Origin: Candidatus Parcubacteria bacterium
GTDB taxonomy: Bacteria; Patescibacteriota; Minisyncoccia; Minisyncoccales; Staskawiczbacteraceae
NCBI GenBank assembly: GCA_019658985.1
Contig: JAIFWS010000001.1
Span: 1-31,110, forward strand
Direction: 5' to 3'
Length of the DNA stretch: 31,110 nt
Shown here: piece after piece, positions 8,097-16,958 of the stretch
Position numbering within the stretch: the stretch's first letter is position 1
Layout: each line of letters starts with the position of its first letter
Translations under genes and position numbers: made by a program
Notes under the pieces: model-generated
The model's database searches: none
What the model was told of the DNA's origin: nothing
The model's input: the letters and a program-made list of their open reading frames with translations, nothing else

Positions 8097-8837
8097 TTAT
8101 AATGATTCCCAAATAAAATTAAATAATTGCTGCTGCGTGGCAAACAAAGCCTCGTCCTCGATGATCAGGGCCAAGGGCTGTTTTGATTTAGTCGCGGAAA
8201 CCATGGCCACTTTGCCAGGGTAGATTAAAATGTAGGTCGGTGAACTTTTTTTGACACTCAAGGATTTTTTTTCTGCTAATTCCGCCACCGATCCCTTGTG
8301 GCCAATACCGATTGATTTGATACGGATTTTTCTTTTGATGCGTTGTTTTGTAAAATCGGGAAAAGCTTTGTAAATGTATTCGCGGATGGCTTCGGAAGAA
8401 AAAACGGAATAGTTTTTTTCTTTCGAGGATTCTGTTATTTCTAGCACATCAGATAAGACCGCCTTCAATCCCGCAAAACCTTCATAGTATTTCACCACCG
8501 GTTTATCAGGAGATTTATTAAAGAGCGATGTAAGTTCCGGAATGGCATCCGTCAACTCTTTTTTAACAGATTCAAGATTTTCTATTTTCTGCGCCAGTGT
8601 TTTCTGCAGGGCGGCCGGATTTTCGGCAACAAAAAATTGTTTAGTATCTTTGTGATAGTAACTAACCAAACCGCCTTCTTTTAAAGACTTTAAAATATCA
8701 TAGGTAGTGCCGCGGTTTATCTTACTAAAAGAAGCCAGAGTACGGACCGAAGAAGGGCCCTGTTCCAGCAGGACAAGGTAAATTTTTATTTCCTTGTCCG
8801 AGAAACCCAATTGTTTTAGTATCGGAATAACTTCCAT
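8097..8837 (-). CDS. TrmB family transcriptional regulator
   Basis: LKQLGFSDKEIKIYLVLL...SKINRGTTYDILKSL wHTH and a PLD-like C-terminal region. The likely start is ATG 8837, just below a sigma70 promoter. Confidence 0.9.
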   Translation of the reverse strand: MEVIPILKQLGFSDKEIKIYLVLLEQGPSSVRTLASFSKINRGTTYDILKSLKEGGLVSYYHKDTKQFFVAENPAALQKTLAQKIENLESVKKELTDAIPELTSLFNKSPDKPVVKYYEGFAGLKAVLSDVLEITESSKEKNYSVFSSEAIREYIYKAFPDFTKQRIKRKIRIKSIGIGHKGSVAELAEKKSLSVKKSSPTYILIYPGKVAMVSATKSKQPLALIIEDEALFATQQQLFNFIWESL

Positions 8838-8844
8838 ATCAATC

Positions 8845-8872
8845 ATTATAGTTTATGTGCAGCATCTGTCAA
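8845..8872 (-). promoter_or_regulatory. Sigma70 promoter of the trmB-glmS operon
   Basis: Minus strand TTGACA (8872-8867), 16 nt, TATAAT (8850-8845). Confidence 0.75.
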
Positions 8873-8910
8873 TTTTTTTTCTACAATATTTGTGGATAAT
8901 ATTTTGCAGC

Positions 8911-8940
8911 AATAAAAAATCCCTTCTTTACAAAGGGATT
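8911..8940 (-). terminator. Intrinsic terminator of array 1
   Basis: Minus strand AATCCCTT-TGTAAAG-AAGGGATT-TTTTATT, 15 nt beyond the last repeat. Confidence 0.75.
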
Positions 8941-8954
8941 ATTGAAGCCTTAAC

Positions 8955-10586
8955 GACGGACTACTCCGCCCCTCGGTTCAAGATGAGGCGCTATGCACCA
9001 CCATGCCGGACGTTGTAATAATGACGGAATACTCCGCCCATCGCGCAGACTAACTAAAGAGCGGGACACCTGAGCAAACTAAACCGAAGGTAGGCAGATT
9101 AATGGCGGATAACTCCGCCCATCGCATCGTGACGCGATACTAGACGATACCGTGCGGAAGCATGAGTATCCTTAAAGACGGCGCACGCCGTCGGACAGCG
9201 GGACACACCGACAGCGGAGAGAGTCGTACAAAACCTAGCTCAGCTCTGTTGTCATGGCGGCATACACCACCCACGACTAGGCAAAAGAGCGCTTTACCAG
9301 ACATTGCCACACGACACGAAAGCTCATCGACAGCGGAGTACTCCGCTCATCCACTATACTGGCACTAGGACTGGCTTCACCTCACAAGACCGTGACTTCA
9401 TAGCGGAATACTCCGCTCGCTCACTATACCGGCGCTAGAACTGACTTTACCTCGCAAGGCCATAACTACTCCGCCAGGCGCCAGGCAACAGTAGGCTCGA
9501 CATTACGTGAGCAGACCACAGGATAACCATTCCCTTGACGGTTTACACCGCCCCGGAACTAGCATTACCTCACTCCGCCTAGCTTAGCTCGACGGATGCA
9601 CAGGAGAATTCATGGCAGAGTACTCTGCCGGGCGTGAAGCGCGGGAGAAGATTGCGGCACCGTGACAGACTTAACCAAGATTTATGGCGGAGTACTCCGC
9701 CCAATACCTGACCAAGCCCGATCTTGCTAGACCTGGCCTTGCCAAATAATAGCGGCGTACGCCGCCCGTAACTTAGAGACGCGTGAGGTCGCAAAGCGAC
9801 AGTTGACTACACGGGACGATACCGCAGCCAATGCATGGCGGAATACTCCGCCCCGAACAAGAACATAGCGGATCGCAGTAAACCATGCCGATTCACAGCT
9901 TGCTCTTGCTTTCATGGCGGCGTACGCCGCCCTTCAAACTAAGTTACCATGAGCTAGGGTACCTTGCCTAATCGCGGCGGATTACTCCGCCCGGCAAAAC
10001 TAACGTGCAGTTGGCTACTCCACGTTACAAGAATACCACGACGGCATACGCCGCCAGAAAAGATACCTGGCTTGACTCCGCGCCACTAAACCTAACCTAA
10101 TCATGACGGAATACTCCGCCCGATACTGTGGCTTAACCCACTGCACCATAATGAGGTAAACCCCATTAATGGCGGAGTACTCCGCCCGACAATCACAATG
10201 TACGGTTGACTGCCATGTGTCGCCAGATAGGTAACGACGGAATACTCCGCCGCGCATGTCGGGTTACGCCACGATACGTTGGCGCACACCGCCTTGAATT
10301 GCATAACGGAATACTCCGCTCAGAAGCCGGGTAGACTCCGCCTTAGGAAGCTTAGCTCCACCCCACCAAATATAACGACGACATACGCCGCCGTGCATGC
10401 AGCACTAAGCTGGATCACACGCCATCGGACCTTGCCATTAACGGCGGATCACTCCACCCGCTAGCTAGCTCCAAGCTACTGCGCGTTGCCTAACTAAATA
10501 TCGACAGCGGATTACTCCGCTCTTCACTGAACAAACACGCAACTAAGACGTAGCCCGCAACGGGCCGCCTTAAGTTATAGCACTTG
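8955..10586 (-). CRISPR. Array 1: non-canonical CRISPR-like hairpin-repeat array with 5-nt-periodic spacers (22 full repeats plus 1 half)
   Basis: 16-nt cores (+ strand consensus G(G/A)CGGA-NTA-CTCCGCC) at 8955, 9023, 9104, 9177, 9256, 9332, 9402, (half 9468), 9537, 9614, 9686, 9751, 9837, 9916, 9976, 10040, 10105, 10171, 10236, 10305, 10377, 10443 and 10506. Spacers are distinct, with a periodic first unit to ~10586. Promoter and terminator give minus-strand orientation. Confidence 0.85.
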
Positions 10587-10598
10587 CATATTCCAAAT

Positions 10599-10627
10599 AA
10601 TATAACTTAAGGCGATTTCTTAATCAA
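10599..10627 (-). promoter_or_regulatory. Sigma70-like promoter of array 1
   Basis: Minus strand TTGATT (10627-10622), 17 nt, TATATT (10604-10599), overlapped by inverted repeats. Confidence 0.65.
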
Positions 10628-10638
10628 ATAAGAAATCT

Positions 10639-10678
10639 AATAAAAATCACGGAGCCGAAGACATTGCTGTACTTCGGC
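10639..10678 (-). terminator. Intrinsic terminator of the DinG gene
   Basis: Minus strand GCCGAAG-TACAGCAATGT-CTTCGGC then TCCGTGATTTTTATT. Confidence 0.65.
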
Positions 10679-10707
10679 GCCGCGATCATTTGTCTACCCA
10701 GGCCTGC

Positions 10708-12648
10708 TCAGTCGACGAGCAGATCCTCGGCCTCCCCGAGACACTCTTCCAGATCCCGGTCGCCGATGTAGACGCCGTGGGCCTGCAACTCCGGCGGCAG
10801 GTTGTGGAAAACGAGTTCCCGGAACCCTTCGGACATCAGCAGAGACACACCCTTGCAATCCTTGCTTCGGATGTTACGGCCGAGAGCCTGGAGAGTCTGC
10901 AGGACAACGCGCGCCCTCGTCCGAACCCAAGCCCCCTTTCCATAGCGCTGTTGTTCGAATTGCGCAACCGCACTCTCCGGATCGGGATACCCCGGGCGCA
11001 GGAGCCACAGCGCACCAGCTAGACCGTCCGGCAAATCCAAGCCCGTGCCGTAGTGCGCCATGCACCCGATCAGCACTTGGCCCTGCCCGTCCTTGAAGAG
11101 TCGCGCGGCCTCCTTAGCCGGCATGTGACCGTTATAGGTCACGACTTCCAGACCCGCTTGTTCACAGAACGCGATACACTGTTCACGTTCTTTGTTCGAC
11201 ACCAGGAGCACGAGGCTACGGATGTCTTGCTCAGCCAGGCGTGCGCAGCCATTGGCGATGGCTCGCAACGTTCTCCGTTTTTTCTTCCCTGACATGTCCT
11301 GCTTGCGCGAGAGATCGTCCACGTCGCAAGGCACCATGATGCGACGGTTGGTCGCCGGGAATGGCGACGGAGCCGAGTGCATCTGCAGGCGCAGACCCGT
11401 TTCGTAGCGGAAGTGGTCGGCGTTTTGGCCGATCGTGGCCGAGAAGCAGAGGGTGGTGGGAGGAGCCAGCCTCTTGATGATCAGGCCAGCCACGTAATGG
11501 CAGTGGAGCCTGAGCAGATACTCGACTCTTTCCCTTCCCTTCTTGATCTGGAAGAACGAACAGGTGTAGTTGAGCGGCCGACGGATGACTTCGTCGTCAT
11601 CGTTCTTCACCGGGATGCCAAACCTCATCGTATGGCCATATCGCCGGAGATCCCGCGTCAGGCGTTCCAGATCCCTGACAGCACGGAAGTCGGTTGGCAT
11701 TTTGAGATGCCCCGCCTCGATCGCTGCCCGTCTTCTCTCGCCCTCAATGATACCGGGTTCGATTTCATCGAGGATTTCTAGTAGCTTCTCAATCTGGTCA
11801 CCCTCGAGCAGATACTCCCGATCGGGTTGCCGATCCTCGCTGTGGGCAATCTCATTCATTGCTTCCAAGAAACGCCTCAGGATCGGCGCTTCCGGTGCGT
11901 GAATGCGTTCGAGAAGGGCGATCGCCTGGCTGACGTGGTAGTTACTGATCGTGTAACTCAACGTGTAGCGGATGACATCCGGCCACTGGTGAGCTTCGTC
12001 AACGATCAGCACTGGCACGCGGCCGTAGGCGGTCTGATACACGTCGCCATCCTGCTTGTTGCCAAACAGCATGATGTACGTGTAGGCGGACATGGTCATG
12101 ACGACGATGCCGCCACCTTTCTTGGCTTCGTAGGTCTGTTGGTAGTACGGACAAGGAACCGCGGACGGATCCTTGACTTGGCCGGTCTTCTGATCAACGT
12201 AGTGCGGACAGTTCTTGTGGAACATGTACGGCACTTCGTCAACGCGCGGCACATCCGGATTGGCGGCCAGCACGGGCAACTCGTGCCGCTGGACCGGGTT
12301 TTTCGGCTCTTCCTCGAAGCCCTCGTGGGCCCAAGGACAGACGTGGTCATGTTGACCGAAGACCACCCGCACATCGGGATGCTCTTCCTTGATCTGCGCG
12401 ACCACTGCCCGGGACGGCGCGATCCACACAACCGTCTCGCCCGGTTCCAGTTTGCTCAGGGCATACGAGGCGGCAGCATATTCCAGCGCCGTCTTGCCCG
12501 TCCCCGTTGGAAGCTGCTGAAGCCACTTCCCCTCCGCCAACGCCCGCATCGCATCCCGTTGAATGGGACGCGGAACAGTGATTTTGTCGGTGAGGGGGAA
12601 ATGGGACAATAGCCCCGGCGTGTCGAACTTCAATCTGTCCGTCGGCAT
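10708..12648 (-). CDS. DinG/XPD-family SF2 helicase (array-embedded)
   Basis: Q motif RPIQ, motif I PTGTGKT, motif II VDEAH, motif III FSAT, motif V GTGLDLP, motif VI QALGRNIRSKDCKG. Cys motifs CPW, CPHY and CPYY lie in the Fe-S region. SD GGAGGAG. Confidence 0.93.
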   Translation of the reverse strand: MPTDRLKFDTPGLLSHFPLTDKITVPRPIQRDAMRALAEGKWLQQLPTGTGKTALEYAAASYALSKLEPGETVVWIAPSRAVVAQIKEEHPDVRVVFGQHDHVCPWAHEGFEEEPKNPVQRHELPVLAANPDVPRVDEVPYMFHKNCPHYVDQKTGQVKDPSAVPCPYYQQTYEAKKGGGIVVMTMSAYTYIMLFGNKQDGDVYQTAYGRVPVLIVDEAHQWPDVIRYTLSYTISNYHVSQAIALLERIHAPEAPILRRFLEAMNEIAHSEDRQPDREYLLEGDQIEKLLEILDEIEPGIIEGERRRAAIEAGHLKMPTDFRAVRDLERLTRDLRRYGHTMRFGIPVKNDDDEVIRRPLNYTCSFFQIKKGRERVEYLLRLHCHYVAGLIIKRLAPPTTLCFSATIGQNADHFRYETGLRLQMHSAPSPFPATNRRIMVPCDVDDLSRKQDMSGKKKRRTLRAIANGCARLAEQDIRSLVLLVSNKEREQCIAFCEQAGLEVVTYNGHMPAKEAARLFKDGQGQVLIGCMAHYGTGLDLPDGLAGALWLLRPGYPDPESAVAQFEQQRYGKGAWVRTRARVVLQTLQALGRNIRSKDCKGVSLLMSEGFRELVFHNLPPELQAHGVYIGDRDLEECLGEAEDLLVD

Positions 12649-12766
12649 ACACTCCTCCCGCTAATAGAGTGGTTGGCTGTCTCCGTTGATTCGAGGATGT
12701 CCGTGCTAATTATCAAAGGTCTTCATCGCTGGACTCGCCCTAGGGCAGGTCTAACGAAGCGCGCTT

Positions 12767-12795
12767 AATTTAACATCAAAAATATCCTTTGTCAA
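12767..12795 (-). promoter_or_regulatory. Sigma70 promoter of the DinG gene
   Basis: Minus strand TTGACA (12795-12790), 17 nt, TAAATT (12772-12767). Confidence 0.65.
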
Positions 12796-12832
12796 TTGAT
12801 TATTATTGTTATAAAAATCCCTGTTTTATACA

Positions 12833-12860
12833 AACAAAAAGACAGCCTGTAAGAGCTGTC
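12833..12860 (-). terminator. Intrinsic terminator of array 2a
   Basis: Minus strand GACAGC-TCTTACAG-GCTGTC-TTTTTGTTT. Confidence 0.75.
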
Positions 12861-12870
12861 TAGAATCAAT

Positions 12871-13779
12871 GACGGAATACTCCGCCCTAAGTGCGGGTGC
12901 GACTTTCCAGGCCGTAGAGGAGGCCGCGGCGACTAACTCTGCCCGATAATAACGGTGTACACCGTCCACAGCGGCAAGGCGCGCTAGCGGGATTCACGAA
13001 ACTCTGCGCTGAGTAATAGCGGATTACTCCGCCCAAAAGGACGTGGCGTGATACGATAAGGGACCACACCCTGGCAAGCCCAATCGATGGCGGAATACTC
13101 CGCCCGATACACTAACTTGGCACGCCCTACTTAACCCAACCTTGGCAAAGATCCATGGCAGAATACTCTGCCGACTGCTCCAGGCCGCTTTGGCGGACCA
13201 GACGCCACGATGCTTTACCCCGGTCTCATCAGCATGACGATCTACATCGCCGCTAACCCGAGTTCTAAGCTGGTTGACGTTACTCTACCGAGCCTCAATC
13301 ATGGCGGCTACGCCGCCCGGCACCAAGGGTTGCCGTACGGCACTTAACTGCACGTAGTATTCATGGCGGAATACTCCACCGGGCAAGTAGACGTGGAAGA
13401 TATTACGACACCGTACGTCAAATCATGGCGGTCGACGCCGCCCGGTACTCGATCCTGCGTTAGCTGACATTGCTCTGGCATGAATATTGGCGAACTACTT
13501 CGCCGGATAGCGCTGAGTAGGAAATCCTGGAGTACTACACGTTACAGCACGCCACGACGTCTAACGACGGAATACTCCGCCCCTAAACCTACTAAGAAGG
13601 AGGGAGCTACGCCATACTAGGTAACGGCGACGTACATCGCCCGAGAGGTGGCTCAGCAATGCCTTAAGATGCTTTACTCAACCCCAAGAATCATGACGGA
13701 CTACTCCGTCCGCAAGTGTACTTAATCCTGGTGGACTAAACCGTAGCTAAGGGAAATGTCAAAGAACCTATCCAATGAA
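12871..13779 (-). CRISPR. Array 2a: same non-canonical hairpin/pentamer array (13 repeats)
   Basis: Cores at 12871, 12951, 13018, 13089, 13157, 13236, 13303, 13365, 13427, 13489, 13566, 13626 and 13695. The first unit (13715-13779) is also periodic. Confidence 0.85.
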
Positions 13780-13784
13780 TTCCC

Positions 13785-13813
13785 AATGTAACACAAAACC
13801 TCCTACAAATCAA
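13785..13813 (-). promoter_or_regulatory. Sigma70-like promoter of array 2a
   Basis: Minus strand TTGATT (13813-13808), 17 nt, TACATT (13790-13785). Same -35 hexamer as the array 1 promoter. Confidence 0.65.
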
Positions 13814-13820
13814 TTTCGCC

Positions 13821-13854
13821 AAAATAAAAAAGGACAGCGTTTGACGACTGTCCT
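13821..13854 (-). terminator. Intrinsic terminator of array 2b
   Basis: Minus strand AGGACAG-TCGTCAAACG-CTGTCCT-TTTTTATTTT. Confidence 0.75.
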
Positions 13855-13867
13855 ATGAACTTGTAAT

Positions 13868-14712
13868 AGCGGCTATGCCGCCCTTTGAGATAAGCTGCTT
13901 TAGTTTACCCAGCTGCATCATACCCAATAATGACGGATTACTCCGCCCGTAACGCCGAACCGTCCTACCTGACGCTACTCAAGAGAAATGACTAATGACG
14001 GATTACTCCGCCCATCGAAGAGCAGGATACGACAGCTGGCAGAACCCCACCATACGTTATCAATGACGGATTACTCCGCCCTGCACCGGGACTAATTACG
14101 CAGCACGATACGCCACGATGGCACTTGCCTAACAGCGGCGTACGCCGCCCAAGACCGGACACGAGGCTTGCTTAACTGTAGTAAGCTTTACCTAACCGCA
14201 GCAGGTCGATGACGGTCTACGCCGCCGGTAAGGTAAGTCGGTGGTGGTGCGCGAAGCTTCACTAGCGCGCAACCTGACTCAACTTTATCATAACAGCGGA
14301 CTACTCCGCCCTCTACAATGGCTTACTTACGATGAGGTGAACTACGCTTTACTAAAACTTCATGGCGGACTACTCCGCCCAAAGATGTGCGCAACAGCGA
14401 CACGCTCGGGCTCGCTGCGCCATGGTAAATTCATCGATGGCGGACTACTCCGCCCGAAAACTTGCTGAGGGCGGGTGCGCCTAACTCAACACAACACCAC
14501 CGAATCGTTGGCGAAATACTCCGCCGGACAAGCTGGTATTCCGCGATTTACTGCACGGAACGTTGCAGAGCTTGAGCACCGTAATGGCGGACTACTCCGC
14601 CCCGTACGAATAACTACTGAATGGAACTATGCCCTGGCTAAAACCATGACGGTTTACACCGCCCGGTAACCTGCAACGGAGAAGTCAACTCTACGTAACC
14701 AAGCCGAATCAT
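13868..14712 (-). CRISPR. Array 2b: same non-canonical hairpin/pentamer array (12 repeats)
   Basis: Cores at 13868, 13932, 13997, 14065, 14134, 14211, 14295, 14364, 14439, 14510, 14586 and 14648, with periodic sequence continuing to ~14712. Confidence 0.85.
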
Positions 14713-14717
14713 CAGGC

Positions 14718-14766
14718 AAAAAAAATCGCAGAACCAGCACACATTCCTGTGTGTCCGGCCCTGCGA
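14718..14766 (-). terminator. Long hairpin plus U8 (terminator or attenuator) between the CSD-protein gene and array 2b
   Basis: Minus strand TCGCAG-GGCCGG-A-CACAC-AGGAAT-GTGTG-CTGGTT-CTGCGA-TTTTTTTT, about 17 bp including G.U pairs. Confidence 0.65.
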
Positions 14767-14806
14767 CCCTAACGACGGTTGAACCCGCCTTTTGTTCGCC
14801 GAAACA

Positions 14807-15733
14807 TCACGACACCGGCTCGACCCCGAAGGCATCGAGCGTGTACTTGGGCTTGCGGCCCGGACGGTATTCGGTCTTGGGGTTGCGTTGAGCCTTGGCC
14901 AGGTTCGAGAACCTGACCCGTTGACCTTGGCCCAGGTAGCGCAGCCGGGGGCTCGGCGGCGCCTCCGTCCAGTGCACCCGCGCCCAGCCCTGAGCGGTGA
15001 CGATCTTGCCCATGTTGCGGGCATCGTGCCAGCTCTCCACCATCCCTTCGTTGCGCCGGAGCCCGTCGATACTCGGCTCAGGCGGAAAGAGGGTGTCGGG
15101 GGCGGGAATCAGCGGCAGTCCCTCGGGAGCGAGATTCACCAGAACCGTTCCCAGGTGCTTGTGTTTGCCGACGCCCGGAAAACAGAGTCTGCCCTTGTAC
15201 CCGGAACAGGCCAGCAGGTCCTGTCGGCGCTGCACCGTCAGGAAGAACTGCCTACCCTGGCTGATGACGGCCACCTCCCACACGTGCACATGGCCGGTCA
15301 GCCTTCCTGCCAGCCGCACGTACTGGCCGAGGCACAGCGTGTTAGCCGGATAGGAGGTCTTGTTGAGGAGAGGACCATCGTAGGCGAAGAGATCCAGGCC
15401 GAAGCGGGATCCGAAGACGACGCCCTCGGAGTCCTTGTCGCGACTCGACAAGAAATCGAAGCGCCGCTTCTGCTTGGCGTGGGCCTCTTCGTAGCCCTCC
15501 TCATTCAATTGGGGGATGTCATCCGGGTCACGGTTCCAGTCCTTCTGGGGCAGGAAGTTATCATCTCCCGTCCGGAAGAACGCGACCGTCCAGTCGGCGT
15601 CGTCGGCCACCTCGGCCAGGATCGTCACCGATCCGGAAGCCAAGTCTCCGACGTAGCCGTCTGCTTCGGGCGCCACGAGGTCTTTTTCGTGATAGACCTC
15701 CACAGCAACGCCCGGGATCTGGTAAACGCTCAT
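14807..15733 (-). CDS. Hypothetical protein with a C-terminal cold-shock-like (OB-fold) domain
   Basis: Residues ~229-308 (EGMVESWHDARNMGKIVTAQGWARVHW...YLGQGQRVRF) align by eye with CspA (GxVKWFNxxKGFGFI...VFVHF...LxEGQxVxF). SD AAGGA. The N-terminal 220 aa are not recognised. Confidence 0.7.
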   Translation of the reverse strand: MSVYQIPGVAVEVYHEKDLVAPEADGYVGDLASGSVTILAEVADDADWTVAFFRTGDDNFLPQKDWNRDPDDIPQLNEEGYEEAHAKQKRRFDFLSSRDKDSEGVVFGSRFGLDLFAYDGPLLNKTSYPANTLCLGQYVRLAGRLTGHVHVWEVAVISQGRQFFLTVQRRQDLLACSGYKGRLCFPGVGKHKHLGTVLVNLAPEGLPLIPAPDTLFPPEPSIDGLRRNEGMVESWHDARNMGKIVTAQGWARVHWTEAPPSPRLRYLGQGQRVRFSNLAKAQRNPKTEYRPGRKPKYTLDAFGVEPVS

Positions 15734-15825
15734 TGGCGAAACCGTCCTTTCTTTTCAAGGTGCACTTATTGCCCGCCGACATAGCGAGCTTCAGATAGAT
15801 TGCTCCTATCATATAAATTATCACT

Positions 15826-15869
15826 TGTCAATTAATTGCGTTGACAGACGGAACATAGTATGTTAGCCT
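15826..15869. promoter_or_regulatory. Back-to-back divergent promoters for the CSD-protein and Cas7-like genes
   Basis: Plus strand TTGACA (15841-15846), 17 nt, TAGCCT (15864-15869) with an extended TG. Minus strand TTGACA (15831-15826) has only a weak -10. Confidence 0.55.
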
Positions 15870-15941
15870 CAAAACCAGTTTCAGGATGAATGTCTGGCGA
15901 CGCCAGCGAATCCTGAATAGCACCTAGCACCGGGAGAACCT

Positions 15942-16877
15942 ATGTCCGAGCCTGCTGTGTTGGAACTGCCGGCGCTCGACGAGAGCGCTATCGCCACCAT
16001 GTACGAAAGCCCCATCATGACCACGCGTCGGGTGGCGGTGTTCAAGTTCTGCCTCAAGGGCCGCAAGCCCTTGCTCTGCGACCGCATGAGTGGGGGGGCG
16101 TTGGACTCCATCTTCACGGGCCAGAAGCTGGAGATCGCGCCCGACATGCGGATCGAGGAGCGGGCCTGGATGAAGGCCTATGGGCGCAGCTACGAAAAGG
16201 ACGTACCGGTCGGCCCCGCCGTCATCCCCGTCGAGAACCTCTCGGCGGCCCTGGTCGCCGCCGGCTGCGCGATCCAGTACGGCAGCGGCAAAACGGAGAA
16301 GGTCACCTTCTCCACGAAGAACACTTCGTTCTTCGGCATGATCGAGTTCCGCGACGAGCACTTCACCATCTTCGGCCCGGACGGGAAACCGGCCGAGTGG
16401 GTGGTGGACAAGCGGCGCGGCGCGGCCAACAACAACAATGGCAGCGCGGTCTGCATCGTCCGCCCCAAGTGGCCGCGATGGTGCATCGCCGGCTACCTGG
16501 ACCTAAACCTGGACTCCGGCCTCAGTCCCGACAAGGCGCTGGACCTCTTCACCGAGGCGGGCAAGAACCACGGCCTGTGCAGCGCCAGGCCGGGCAACAA
16601 AATGACGTTCGGCATGTACGACGTCACCACGTTCGAGTGGGTGGGGGGCGTGGACCCCAAAACCATCACCGTCAGCGTGGGCAGCAGCACGACGGCGGCC
16701 AAGCCCAAGCGCGCCACCAGCCGCAAAAAGAAGGTTGCCGACGAAGCGCCCGCGCCGGACGCCACTTCGGAGACGCCGGCGGACGCGACGCTCGACGGCC
16801 AAGCCGCGGCCGAGACGCTGGGGCCCGGCACGCCGTTGGGCAACGGCGAAGCGCCCGCCGCCGAAACCCCGCAGTAA
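15942..16877 (+). CDS. Cas7-like RAMP-superfamily protein (candidate guide-binding backbone subunit)
   Basis: RAMP-like motifs: FKFCLKGRKPLL (beta1), AVIPVENLSAALVAAG (cf. Csm3/Cmr4 xIPGSSLKG), VVDKRR...IVRPKWPRW (thumb region) and AGKNHGLCSARPGNKMTFGMYDV (G-rich loop, cf. GLGxxRxxGxGxF). ~70-aa low-complexity tail. SD GGAG. Confidence 0.72.
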   Translation: MSEPAVLELPALDESAIATMYESPIMTTRRVAVFKFCLKGRKPLLCDRMSGGALDSIFTGQKLEIAPDMRIEERAWMKAYGRSYEKDVPVGPAVIPVENLSAALVAAGCAIQYGSGKTEKVTFSTKNTSFFGMIEFRDEHFTIFGPDGKPAEWVVDKRRGAANNNNGSAVCIVRPKWPRWCIAGYLDLNLDSGLSPDKALDLFTEAGKNHGLCSARPGNKMTFGMYDVTTFEWVGGVDPKTITVSVGSSTTAAKPKRATSRKKKVADEAPAPDATSETPADATLDGQAAAETLGPGTPLGNGEAPAAETPQ

Positions 16878-16902
16878 CAACTGATGGGACCAACAACGCA
16901 AT

Positions 16903-16940
16903 GCCGCCAAGAGATTCTATCTCCTGGCGGCTCTTTATTT
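16903..16940 (+). terminator. Terminator after the Cas7-like gene
   Basis: GCCGCCA-AGAGAT-TCT-ATCTC-C-TGGCGGC followed by TCTTTATTT. Confidence 0.7.
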
Positions 16941-16958
16941 ATATGTATTCAGAAATTT

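What the first reader, a model, noticed from the sequence alone, without database searches (positions are those of the whole stretch)
8955..14663. Repeats are conserved as an RNA structure: compensatory changes, G.U pairs on one strand only, GUNN loop
Seen: repeat sequence varies widely but pairing is kept. Compensatory variants include GGCAGA/TCTGCC (9614, 13157), GGCGGC/GCCGCC (9916), AGCGGA/TCCGCT (9332), GACGGC/GCCGTC (9177) and GGCGAA/TTCGCC (13489). Apparent A.C mismatches on the + strand become G.U pairs on the minus strand, e.g. 10377 reads GGCGGC-GUAU-GUCGUC and 9256 reads GGUGGU-GUAU-GCCGCC. True mismatches are rare (13427, 14211). The loop is GUAN in most repeats and starts with GU in nearly all, and a conserved RU(U/G/C) follows the stem. 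This independently fixes the minus strand as the functional RNA. Inference: the hairpin is a processing site or end cap. With no Cas6 present, the processing enzyme is unknown (the RAMP itself, the 308-aa protein, or a host RNase).
Basis: partly seen in the sequence, partly recalled or inferred. Interest (0 to 1): 0.82.

Follow-up and report, generated by a model that had tools for sequence, protein, structure and literature searches.

The report
VIPR guide-RNA tail hairpins
The repeated hairpins are real, selected RNA structures: each caps the 3' end of one guide RNA in a large array of a VIPR system, a CRISPR-like RNA-guided system first described in 2026 preprints, so this is a notable new example of a known kind.

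Summary
There are 45 regular hairpins plus 2 with 3-nt loops, all on the minus strand (GGCGGA-GUAN-UCCGYC). They pair in 99.3% of cells, with 24 compensatory cells, 28 G.U against 2 A.C (p 9e-7), and a conserved RYNRAU tail.

The repeats are not CRISPR repeats. Each "spacer" is a 5-nt-periodic YNNNG tract phase-locked to the hairpin on its 3' side. The 311-aa protein is a homologue of the SUSP1 Vipr protein (hhalign 96.6%; PDB 36pp E 1e-8) with a Cas7-like fold. The locus is therefore a VIPR system (bioRxiv 10.64898/2026.04.26.720920 and .720927). In that system a structured 3' tail caps each vrRNA.

The same gene order (Vipr, cold-shock-domain protein, array, DinG-like helicase, array) recurs in five other CPR loci. 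Their stems differ in sequence but the hairpin-plus-tail layout is the same.

Its CRISPR framing does not, and the processing enzyme remains unknown. Cas1 and Cas6 were not found; the genome has RNase Y, J and III.

This scan has already met VIPR in at least 52 other genomes; the eight notes shown were all from phages.

The parts
8949..10530 (-). vrRNA array 1. It holds 22 regular units, each a YNNNG-periodic guide tract followed by a 16-nt 3' hairpin and a RYNRAU tail, plus one truncated remnant at 9460-9475.
8918..8940 (-). Intrinsic terminator that ends array 1: a 9-bp stem followed by UUUUAUU.
   Evidence: sequence
10599..10627 (-). Promoter-like site (TTGATT-17-TATATT) upstream of array 1.
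   Evidence: consensus match only
10708..12648 (-). DinG-like SF2 helicase of 646 aa, the candidate VIPR accessory (vap) gene. It lies between the arrays.
   Evidence: Pfam DEAD/Helicase_C_2. PADLOC typeIV_DinG PDLC01439, E 1e-36, full length. Syntenic orthologues at 35-88% identity in L008, L009, L013, L017, L020, L023 and L024.
12865..13720 (-). vrRNA array 2. It holds 12 regular units plus one unit with a 3-nt loop at 13303-13318.
12840..12861 (-). Intrinsic terminator that ends array 2.
13860..14790 (-). vrRNA array 3. It holds 11 regular units, one unit with a 3-nt loop at 13866-13882, and a degenerate first copy at 14767-14789.
13831..13854 (-). Intrinsic terminator that ends array 3.
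10171..10186 (-). Best-scoring example of the tail hairpin: GGCGGA-GUAC-UCCGCC (37.5 bits with model R1).
14807..15733 (-). 308-aa protein. The N-terminal beta-rich domain has no identified fold. The C-terminal part (about residues 226-308) is a cold-shock domain. It points the same way as the arrays and is a candidate second accessory protein.
   Evidence: AlphaFold pLDDT 74.7. Foldseek matches to CspE/CspA, TM 0.74-0.79 by target. VIA Z 8.4, rmsd 1.9 A over 64 residues. Homologues next to arrays in L008, L017, L020, L023 and L024.
15942..16877 (+). vipr gene. It encodes a 311-aa minimal RAMP (core residues about 25-240) with a disordered K/A/P/T/E-rich C-terminal tail.
   Evidence: hhalign against SUSP1 Vipr 96.6%, E 6e-10. 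Profile against PDB 36pp_D 'SUSP1 Vipr protein', E 1.1e-8. phrog_4652. Cas7/Csm3/Cmr4 fold matches.

Best explanation
The locus is a chromosomal VIPR (Viral Interference Programmable Repeat) system in a bacterium with a 0.7-Mb, CPR-type genome. Three minus-strand transcription units carry about 47 guide RNAs (vrRNAs) in tandem.

Each vrRNA has three parts. First comes a tract of roughly 8-13 pentanucleotide YNNNG repeats, the guide, in which Y and partly G are the protein-held scaffold. Next comes a 6-bp/4-nt hairpin. Last comes a short single-stranded RYNRAU tail.

By analogy with the SUSP1 system, where a 3' pseudoknot caps the RNA, the hairpin is inferred to do three things:
- mark and protect the 3' end of each guide;
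- fix the register of the 5-nt repeats for the Vipr filament, which would extend from the hairpin towards the 5' end;
- define the unit boundary, so that the long transcript can be cut in the A/U-rich tail, probably by host RNase Y or J or by an accessory protein.

Shown here: the structure, the strand, the phase-lock, and the homology to Vipr. Inferred: transcription, processing, filament nucleation and DNA targeting.
For: 1. Selection for the hairpin.
- Within the window.
- Between orthologous units of two genomes: 33 of 37 changed pairs still pair.
- Across 148 hairpins from several loci.

2. The hairpin belongs to the tract on its 5' side.
- Pyrimidines occupy positions -5, -10 ... -45 from the stem in 36-43 of 45 units.
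- There is no phase relative to the hairpin upstream.
- The same holds in L008, L017, L020 and L023.
- The period-5 signal is strand-specific: 99 windows on the minus strand against 2 on the plus strand, with 3-12 in minus-strand shuffles.

3. Vipr homology.
- hhalign 96.6%, E 6e-10, to the SUSP1 Vipr gene.
- hmmsearch E 1.1e-8 to PDB 36pp 'SUSP1 Vipr protein'.
- phrog_4652 and Cas7-like fold matches.
- In phages LESphi2 and Zizzle the homologous gene sits beside (NNGGC)n arrays.

4. Published VIPR anatomy matches.
- 9-16 pentanucleotide repeats followed by an invariable structured 3' tail; YNNNG variants noted; helicase accessory genes in types III-V.
- The pseudoknot caps the 3' end, protomers resolve 3' to 5', and the Y pocket excludes purines.

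5. The architecture is conserved while stem sequences differ.
- GGCGGA/UCCGCC here.
- GAYGGA/UCCGUC in L017, L020 and L023.
- AGCAAG/CUUGCU in L024.
- Terminator hairpins in L009 and L013.

6. Minus-strand terminators end each array.

7. Cas1 and Cas6 were not found in the genome. RNase Y, J and III are present and RNase E/G was not found.
Against:
- No target was found under any skip rule in the own genome, in the related loci, or in three exact scans of viral contigs.
- The scaffold is weak compared with the published GGY motif: Y 86% but G only 52%.
- The Vipr model has mean pLDDT of only 56.
- The 16-nt hairpin is much simpler than the SUSP1 pseudoknot tail, so its roles in capping and nucleation rest on analogy.
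- The exact VIPR type cannot be checked, because the figures and data tables are not held.
- Some units are out of phase or decayed.
Confidence: 0.85

Rival explanations
1. The system is VIPR, but the hairpin is only a passive RNA-stability and boundary element. It would block 3' exonucleases and set host-RNase cleavage sites, and would not be recognised by Vipr or the accessory proteins or used to nucleate the filament.
For: - The stem sequence is free to vary as long as it pairs.
- Loops differ between lineages.
- In L009 and L013 an ordinary terminator hairpin takes the same place.
- RNase Y and J are present.
Against: - The strict phase-lock of the 5-nt repeats to the first stem base implies that the register is read from the hairpin.
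- Within this lineage the loop G-U-A is more conserved than the stem, and the tail RYNRAU is conserved across loci. Both suggest sequence-specific contacts.
Confidence: 0.25
2. The locus is a degenerate, adaptation-less type IV-like CRISPR array. The hairpins would be CRISPR repeats processed by an unrecognised Cas6-like enzyme, and the intervening sequences would be old spacers.
For: - The helicase's best defence-library match is a type IV DinG model, E 1e-36.
- There is a Cas7-like protein.
- Unit spacing of 60-86 nt resembles repeat-plus-spacer lengths.
Against: - The spacers carry a 5-nt scaffold that is phase-locked to the hairpin.
- Repeats vary within one array: 33 distinct 16-mers among 45 copies.
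- Spacer lengths range from 44 to 70 nt.
- No PADLOC model matched either unassigned protein, and Cas1 and Cas6 were not found in the genome.
- The RAMP is specifically a Vipr homologue.
- Units are inherited vertically and diverge, rather than being acquired.
Confidence: 0.04
3. The palindromes act at the DNA level, as REP-like elements or protein-binding or recombination sites, or they act as transcription attenuators. They would not be parts of mature RNAs.
For: - They are short G+C-rich palindromes.
- A few are followed by T-rich sequence and score as terminator-like.
Against: - G.U occurs 28 times against 2 for A.C, which is meaningless for duplex DNA.
- All copies have one orientation and occur only in this locus of the genome.
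- Most copies lack a U-run.
- Real terminators end each array.
- The copies are coupled to the strand-specific period-5 tract.
Confidence: 0.03

Closest known systems
VIPR systems: Vipr plus vrRNA. The reference is type II of Escherichia phage SUSP1 (bioRxiv 10.64898/2026.04.26.720920, 10.64898/2026.04.26.720927 and 10.64898/2026.10.15.759431; PDB 36pp).
   Same: - A minimal RAMP protein homologous to SUSP1 Vipr.
- Guide RNAs made of about 9-13 pentanucleotide repeats with a pyrimidine scaffold position, followed by a conserved structured 3' tail.
- Several vrRNAs in tandem.
- No Cas1 or Cas6 found.
- Adjacent accessory genes.
   Different: - The scaffold is YNNNG (Y 86%, G 52%) rather than GGY. 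The paper lists this variant without detail.
- The tail is a bare 6-bp tetraloop hairpin plus RYNRAU rather than a pseudoknot of about 40-60 nt.
- There are 47 guides in three terminated arrays (about 85 in relative L008), against four in SUSP1.
- The accessory genes are a DinG-like helicase and a cold-shock-domain protein rather than a small DNA-binding Vap1.
- The host is a 0.7-Mb CPR chromosome, not a phage.
- By elimination from the text this is probably the helicase-bearing type IV, which I could not verify.
Type IV CRISPR-Cas (Csf1, Csf2, Csf3 and Csf5 with CasDinG)
   Same: - A Cas7-fold backbone protein plus a DinG-family helicase.
- No nuclease and no adaptation genes.
- The guide RNA carries a 3' hairpin.
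- The helicase matches a PADLOC type IV DinG model at E 1e-36.
   Different: - No matches to the searched Cas5, Cas6 or Cas8-like (Csf1) models.
- The repeats are not identical.
- The spacers are 5-nt-periodic scaffolds rather than contiguous guides.
- The expected protein period is 5 nt rather than 6 nt.
TIGR-Tas (PMC12045711)
   Same: Non-CRISPR tandem guide-RNA arrays found in phages and CPR bacteria. Some variants have hairpin-flanked units processed in the linkers.
   Different: No Nop-domain Tas protein, no box C/D motifs, and no 18-nt dual-repeat period. The protein here has a RAMP fold.

Membership tests
VIPR | Vipr protein: a minimal single-RRM RAMP homologous to SUSP1 Vipr | tested here: met
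   hhalign 96.6%, E 6e-10, 169 columns, against ALH47069.1 of phiSUSP1. hmmsearch E 1.1e-8 against PDB 36pp_D 'SUSP1 Vipr protein'. phrog_4652. Foldseek matches to Csm3, Cmr4 and Csf2, probability about 1.
VIPR | vrRNA guide tract: 9-16 tandem pentanucleotide repeats with a fixed scaffold (GGY, or a related consensus such as YNNNG) | tested here: met
   Y at 86% and G at 52% of phase positions. Phased over about 9-11 units. Strand-specific at 99 against 2 windows. The paper lists YNNNG variants.
VIPR | Conserved structured tail immediately 3' of the repeat tract | tested here: met
   The hairpin starts in register after the last pentamer. Covariation. The tail here is a simple hairpin, not the pseudoknot of the SUSP1 clade.
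VIPR | Adjacent accessory (vap) genes predicted to act on DNA | tested here: met
   The DinG-like helicase and the cold-shock-domain protein are syntenic in six loci. The text says types III-V carry nucleases or helicases. Identity with a named vap could not be checked.
VIPR | vrRNAs are expressed, bound by Vipr, and direct gapped recognition of DNA | not testable with these tools
Target searches gave only chance-level matches.
CRISPR-Cas type IV | CRISPR array of near-identical direct repeats separating unrelated, non-periodic spacers | tested here: not met
   33 distinct 16-mers among 45 copies. The spacers carry a phased YNNNG scaffold.
CRISPR-Cas type IV | Cas6/Csf5, Cas5/Csf3 and Csf1 partners | tested here: not met
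   No PADLOC, NCBIfam or Pfam Cas family matched the 308-aa or 311-aa proteins. No Cas6 or Cas1 Pfam match in the 97.5%-complete genome.
CRISPR-Cas type IV | DinG-family helicase (Csf4) | tested here: inconclusive
   PADLOC typeIV_DinG PDLC01439 matches at E 1e-36 over the full length. NCBIfam cas_csf4 gives only E 8e-5 over a partial stretch, far below its cut-off.
TIGR-Tas | Nop-domain Tas protein and box C/D-like tigRNA arrays | tested here: not met
   No Nop domain in any protein of the locus. The array anatomy is different.

The most novel reading that the evidence does not exclude
This DinG-plus-cold-shock-domain subtype from CPR bacteria may be a mechanistically distinct branch of VIPR. 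In this reading a minimal hairpin-plus-RYNRAU tail is read by the cold-shock-domain protein, rather than by a pseudoknot and Vipr alone, to process arrays of 50-85 guides and to phase the filament. The relaxed YNNNG scaffold might then use a different pairing code. Its type IV-like DinG could make it an evolutionary bridge between VIPR and type IV CRISPR-Cas.
Probability: 0.2. Interest if true: 0.7.

Novelty: new member of a known kind. Interest (0 to 1): 0.45.

Why it matters
VIPR was described only in 2026, and mostly from phages with a handful of guides.

- **Size and setting.** This locus shows a cellular, helicase-associated version. It takes about 1% of a 0.7-Mb genome and carries about 47 guides (about 85 in a relative).
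- **A natural mutagenesis series.** The many diverged copies show that what is selected in the guide's 3' tail is a 6-bp helix in fixed register with the pentamer tract, plus a short single-stranded motif.
- **A testable minimal design.** This gives a minimal tail for VIPR guides that can be tested directly.
- **A link to type IV CRISPR-Cas.** The DinG-type helicase raises the question of how VIPR relates to type IV CRISPR-Cas.

Tried and rejected
- **Plain Fourier analysis of pyrimidine content.** It gave only weak enrichment, because the hairpins break the phase. Profiles anchored on the hairpin were decisive.
- **Target search in held sequence.** I tried seven pairing rules: NN or NNN with 0-3 skipped bases (NNN with 0-2). 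The search space was the own genome with the island masked, then an 846-kb set that also held the related loci. Matches were no better than scrambled guides, apart from period-5 hits on unmasked array copies.
- **Target search in viral contigs.** Three exact gapped patterns of 20 specified bases found nothing. Exact matching is a weak test, so I stopped there.
- **Rfam.** No ribozyme, CRISPR direct-repeat or other family matched in 8700-15000. So this is not the hammerhead-interspersed VIPR array type.
- **TIGR-Tas.** Considered and rejected.
- **Neighbour avoidance.** I tested whether neighbouring hairpins differ more than random pairs, which would limit mis-pairing. They do not (P 0.33).
- **Minimum-energy folding of a two-unit transcript.** It pairs the two neighbouring repeats with each other. 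The within-unit compensation argues against that fold.
- **Other searches that returned nothing.**
  - The 311-aa core against the phage collection by tblastn.
  - The helicase against PDB sequences.
  - The search for related loci with alignment A2, which had no stretch conserved enough to search with.
- **N-terminal domain of the 308-aa protein.** Foldseek and VIA rows were filled by the C-terminal cold-shock domain, so the N-terminal fold remains untested.

Full report
**Setting**

The window is a whole 31-kb contig (C59) of a 697-kb genome that is 97.5% complete. This is a CPR/Patescibacteria-type organism: the related loci come from Saccharibacteria and groundwater CPR assemblies. Positions 8.9-16.9 kb form a G+C-rich island (55-64%, against about 45% elsewhere).

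**The observation**

A scan of the minus strand finds 45 hairpins of 16 nt of the form GGCGGA-GUAN-UCCGYC. Two more copies have 3-nt loops and two are decayed remnants.

- On the 45-row alignment, 99.3% of stem cells pair (shuffles 88.8 +/- 1.0, 0/500).
- Five of six pairs show changes on both sides, with 24 compensatory cells against 5.6 expected. Sliding the partner by 1-3 columns destroys the pairing.
- There are 28 G.U pairs and only two A.C combinations (p 8.7e-7).
- 96% of units pair perfectly with themselves, against about 40% when arms of different units are combined. So compensation is local to each unit.
- The loop G, U and A, and the 3' flank R-U-N-R, are conserved.

My list was chosen partly by pairing, so I sought independent tests. 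A relative with 84-88% identical proteins (L008) has syntenic arrays. Among orthologous units, 37 stem pairs differ and 33 still pair: 11 by double change and 22 through G.U. A covariance model built from the window finds about 250 matches in the related loci. In the best 148 distinct matches all six pairs covary, with 106 compensatory cells against 13.3 +/- 2.9.

**What lies between the hairpins**

The first-stage scan had also noted a 5-nt periodicity, and I tested it.

- Anchored on the 5' edge of each hairpin, pyrimidines occupy positions -5, -10 ... -45 in 36-43 of 45 units. G is enriched one base before each of these positions.
- Anchored on the 3' edge of the preceding hairpin, there is no phase at all.
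- Overall the phase positions are 86% Y and 52% G, and the three positions between are close to uniform.
- A simple score finds 99 positive windows on the minus strand, 2 on the plus strand, and 3-12 in minus-strand shuffles.

So each unit is a YNNNG tract, then a 3' hairpin, then a short tail. Spacer length (44-70 nt) is not a multiple of 5, so the register is set from the hairpin.

**The proteins**

*The 311-aa protein.*
- It has no Pfam, NCBIfam or PADLOC match.
- A profile of its few close homologues finds 5,175 cluster representatives. This family corresponds to phrog_4652 and occurs in Felix O1-like coliphages, mycobacteriophages and Pseudomonas phage LESphi2.
- Its model (pLDDT 56) matches Csm3, Cmr4, type VII Cas7 and Csf2 (Foldseek probability about 1, E 1e-4; VIA Z 8.2).

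*The 308-aa protein.* It ends in a cold-shock domain.

*The 646-aa protein.* It is a DinG-like helicase. Its best defence-library match is a type IV DinG model at E 1e-36.

*Conserved gene order.* The order Vipr-like gene (divergent), cold-shock-domain gene, array, helicase, array recurs in L008, L017, L023 and L024. It recurs in L020 as well, where the contig ends before the first gene.

**Identification**

In LESphi2 and in mycobacteriophage Zizzle, the DNA just upstream of the homologous gene is an explicit (NNGGC)n array. A literature search then found the VIPR preprints. These report the following:

- Vipr is a minimal RAMP.
- vrRNAs consist of 9-16 YNNGG repeats followed by an invariable structured 3' tail.
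- The variable dinucleotides pair with DNA, with one skipped base per unit.
- Seven types exist, with alternative NNNGG, YNNNG and NNNNG scaffolds.
- Types III-V carry nuclease or helicase accessory genes.

I checked homology directly. The family profile aligns to the phiSUSP1 gene that lies between the published vrRNA positions at 96.6% probability, E 6e-10. It also hits PDB 36pp 'SUSP1 Vipr protein' at E 1.1e-8.

The hairpin repeats are therefore the 3' tails of vrRNAs.

**Comparative support for a structural role**

- L017, L020 and L023 use GAYGGA/UCCGUC stems with U-rich loops of 3-6 nt and an AUUGAU or AUUAAU tail.
- L024 uses AGCAAG/CUUGCU with its own compensatory variants.
- L009 and L013 encode single vrRNA genes, each with its own promoter. 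There the periodic tract runs into a long terminator hairpin.

A helix in register with the tract is thus the conserved feature. The GUAN loop is particular to the window's lineage.

**Transcription and processing**

- Each array ends, on the minus strand, in a clear hairpin-plus-U terminator at 8918-8940, 12840-12861 and 13831-13854. A promoter-like site precedes array 1.
- The genome has no Cas1, Cas6 or RNase E/G match, but it encodes RNase Y, J and III.
- I infer, but did not show, that the long transcripts are cut in the A/U-rich RYNRAU tail and that the hairpin protects the new 3' end.
- No ribozyme lies between units.

**Evolution**

- Arrays in the window and in L008 are collinear, with gains and losses of units.
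- Aligned guide positions differ at 12-22%, against 31-35% at four-fold degenerate sites in the flanking genes. This points to purifying selection, although only alignable units were counted.
- At the Y position, 84% of changes are transitions.
- The two variable positions just 3' of Y diverge less (0.12 and 0.15) than the third (0.22). This is a hint that the canonical NN code persists and that the third N is a relaxed G.
- The cold-shock-domain gene occurs in only 9 of 401 sampled genomes of the phylum. Together with the foreign G+C content, this suggests horizontal spread.

**Limits**

- No reads could be examined.
- No targets were found.
- The VIPR type cannot be assigned from the held text.

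**Verdict**

The system is a member of the recently described VIPR family, not a new RNA-guided system or a CRISPR variant. This scan has already reported VIPR arrays in at least 52 other genomes; the eight notes shown were all from phages.

Noticed in passing
window 10708-12648 (-): The helicase matches a PADLOC type IV-A 'DinG' model over its full length (E 1e-36) far better than any housekeeping DinG model (E 1e-6, partial). This may point to a link between helicase-bearing VIPR and type IV CRISPR-Cas, or to CPR helicases having been used to build that model.
   Followed up: partly
L009:10610-12260 and L013:2199-3997: Distant loci from assemblies labelled Pacebacteria and Pacearchaeota carry a 200-aa Vipr and a DinG-like helicase. 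Their vrRNAs are separate small genes, each with its own promoter and a long terminator hairpin as tail. L013 has two Vipr paralogues.
   Followed up: partly
L022:4563-4751 (Mycobacterium phage Zizzle gp53) and L021:4576-4910 (Pseudomonas phage LESphi2): (NNGGC)n pentamer arrays lie directly upstream of the phrog_4652 gene. In Zizzle the array is annotated as a 62-aa hypothetical protein (gp53), which is probably not a gene.
   Followed up: partly
window, guide tracts upstream of hairpins 10171, 9976, 9402, 9332, 13236 and 10506: These units lose the pyrimidine phase within the tract. They may be decayed or frame-shifted guides. Units 9332 and 9402 are an adjacent duplicated pair with 80% identity (family D14).
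   Followed up: no
window vs L008, guide positions: The third variable position of each pentamer diverges as fast as the scaffold positions (0.22), while the first two diverge less (0.12-0.15). This suggests only two bases per unit are read.
   Followed up: partly
window 16660-16877 (+), residues about 240-311 of the 311-aa protein: A disordered K/A/P/T/E-rich C-terminal extension is absent from the 200-aa homologues.
   Followed up: no
L008:8870-9796 (P0011): The orthologue of the 308-aa protein is unalignable over about 35 residues (alignment columns about 225-260) and conserved on both sides. This looks like a compensated frameshift or an assembly error.
   Followed up: no
window 8900-16950: The island has 55-64% G+C in a genome of about 45%. 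The cold-shock-domain gene is present in only 9 of 401 sampled genomes of the phylum and in none of the 5 sampled genomes of the same order.
   Followed up: partly
window 10099-10235 (-): Minimum-energy folding of two adjacent units pairs the two near-palindromic repeats with each other instead of forming local hairpins. Folding during transcription, or protein binding, would be needed to prevent this.
   Followed up: partly
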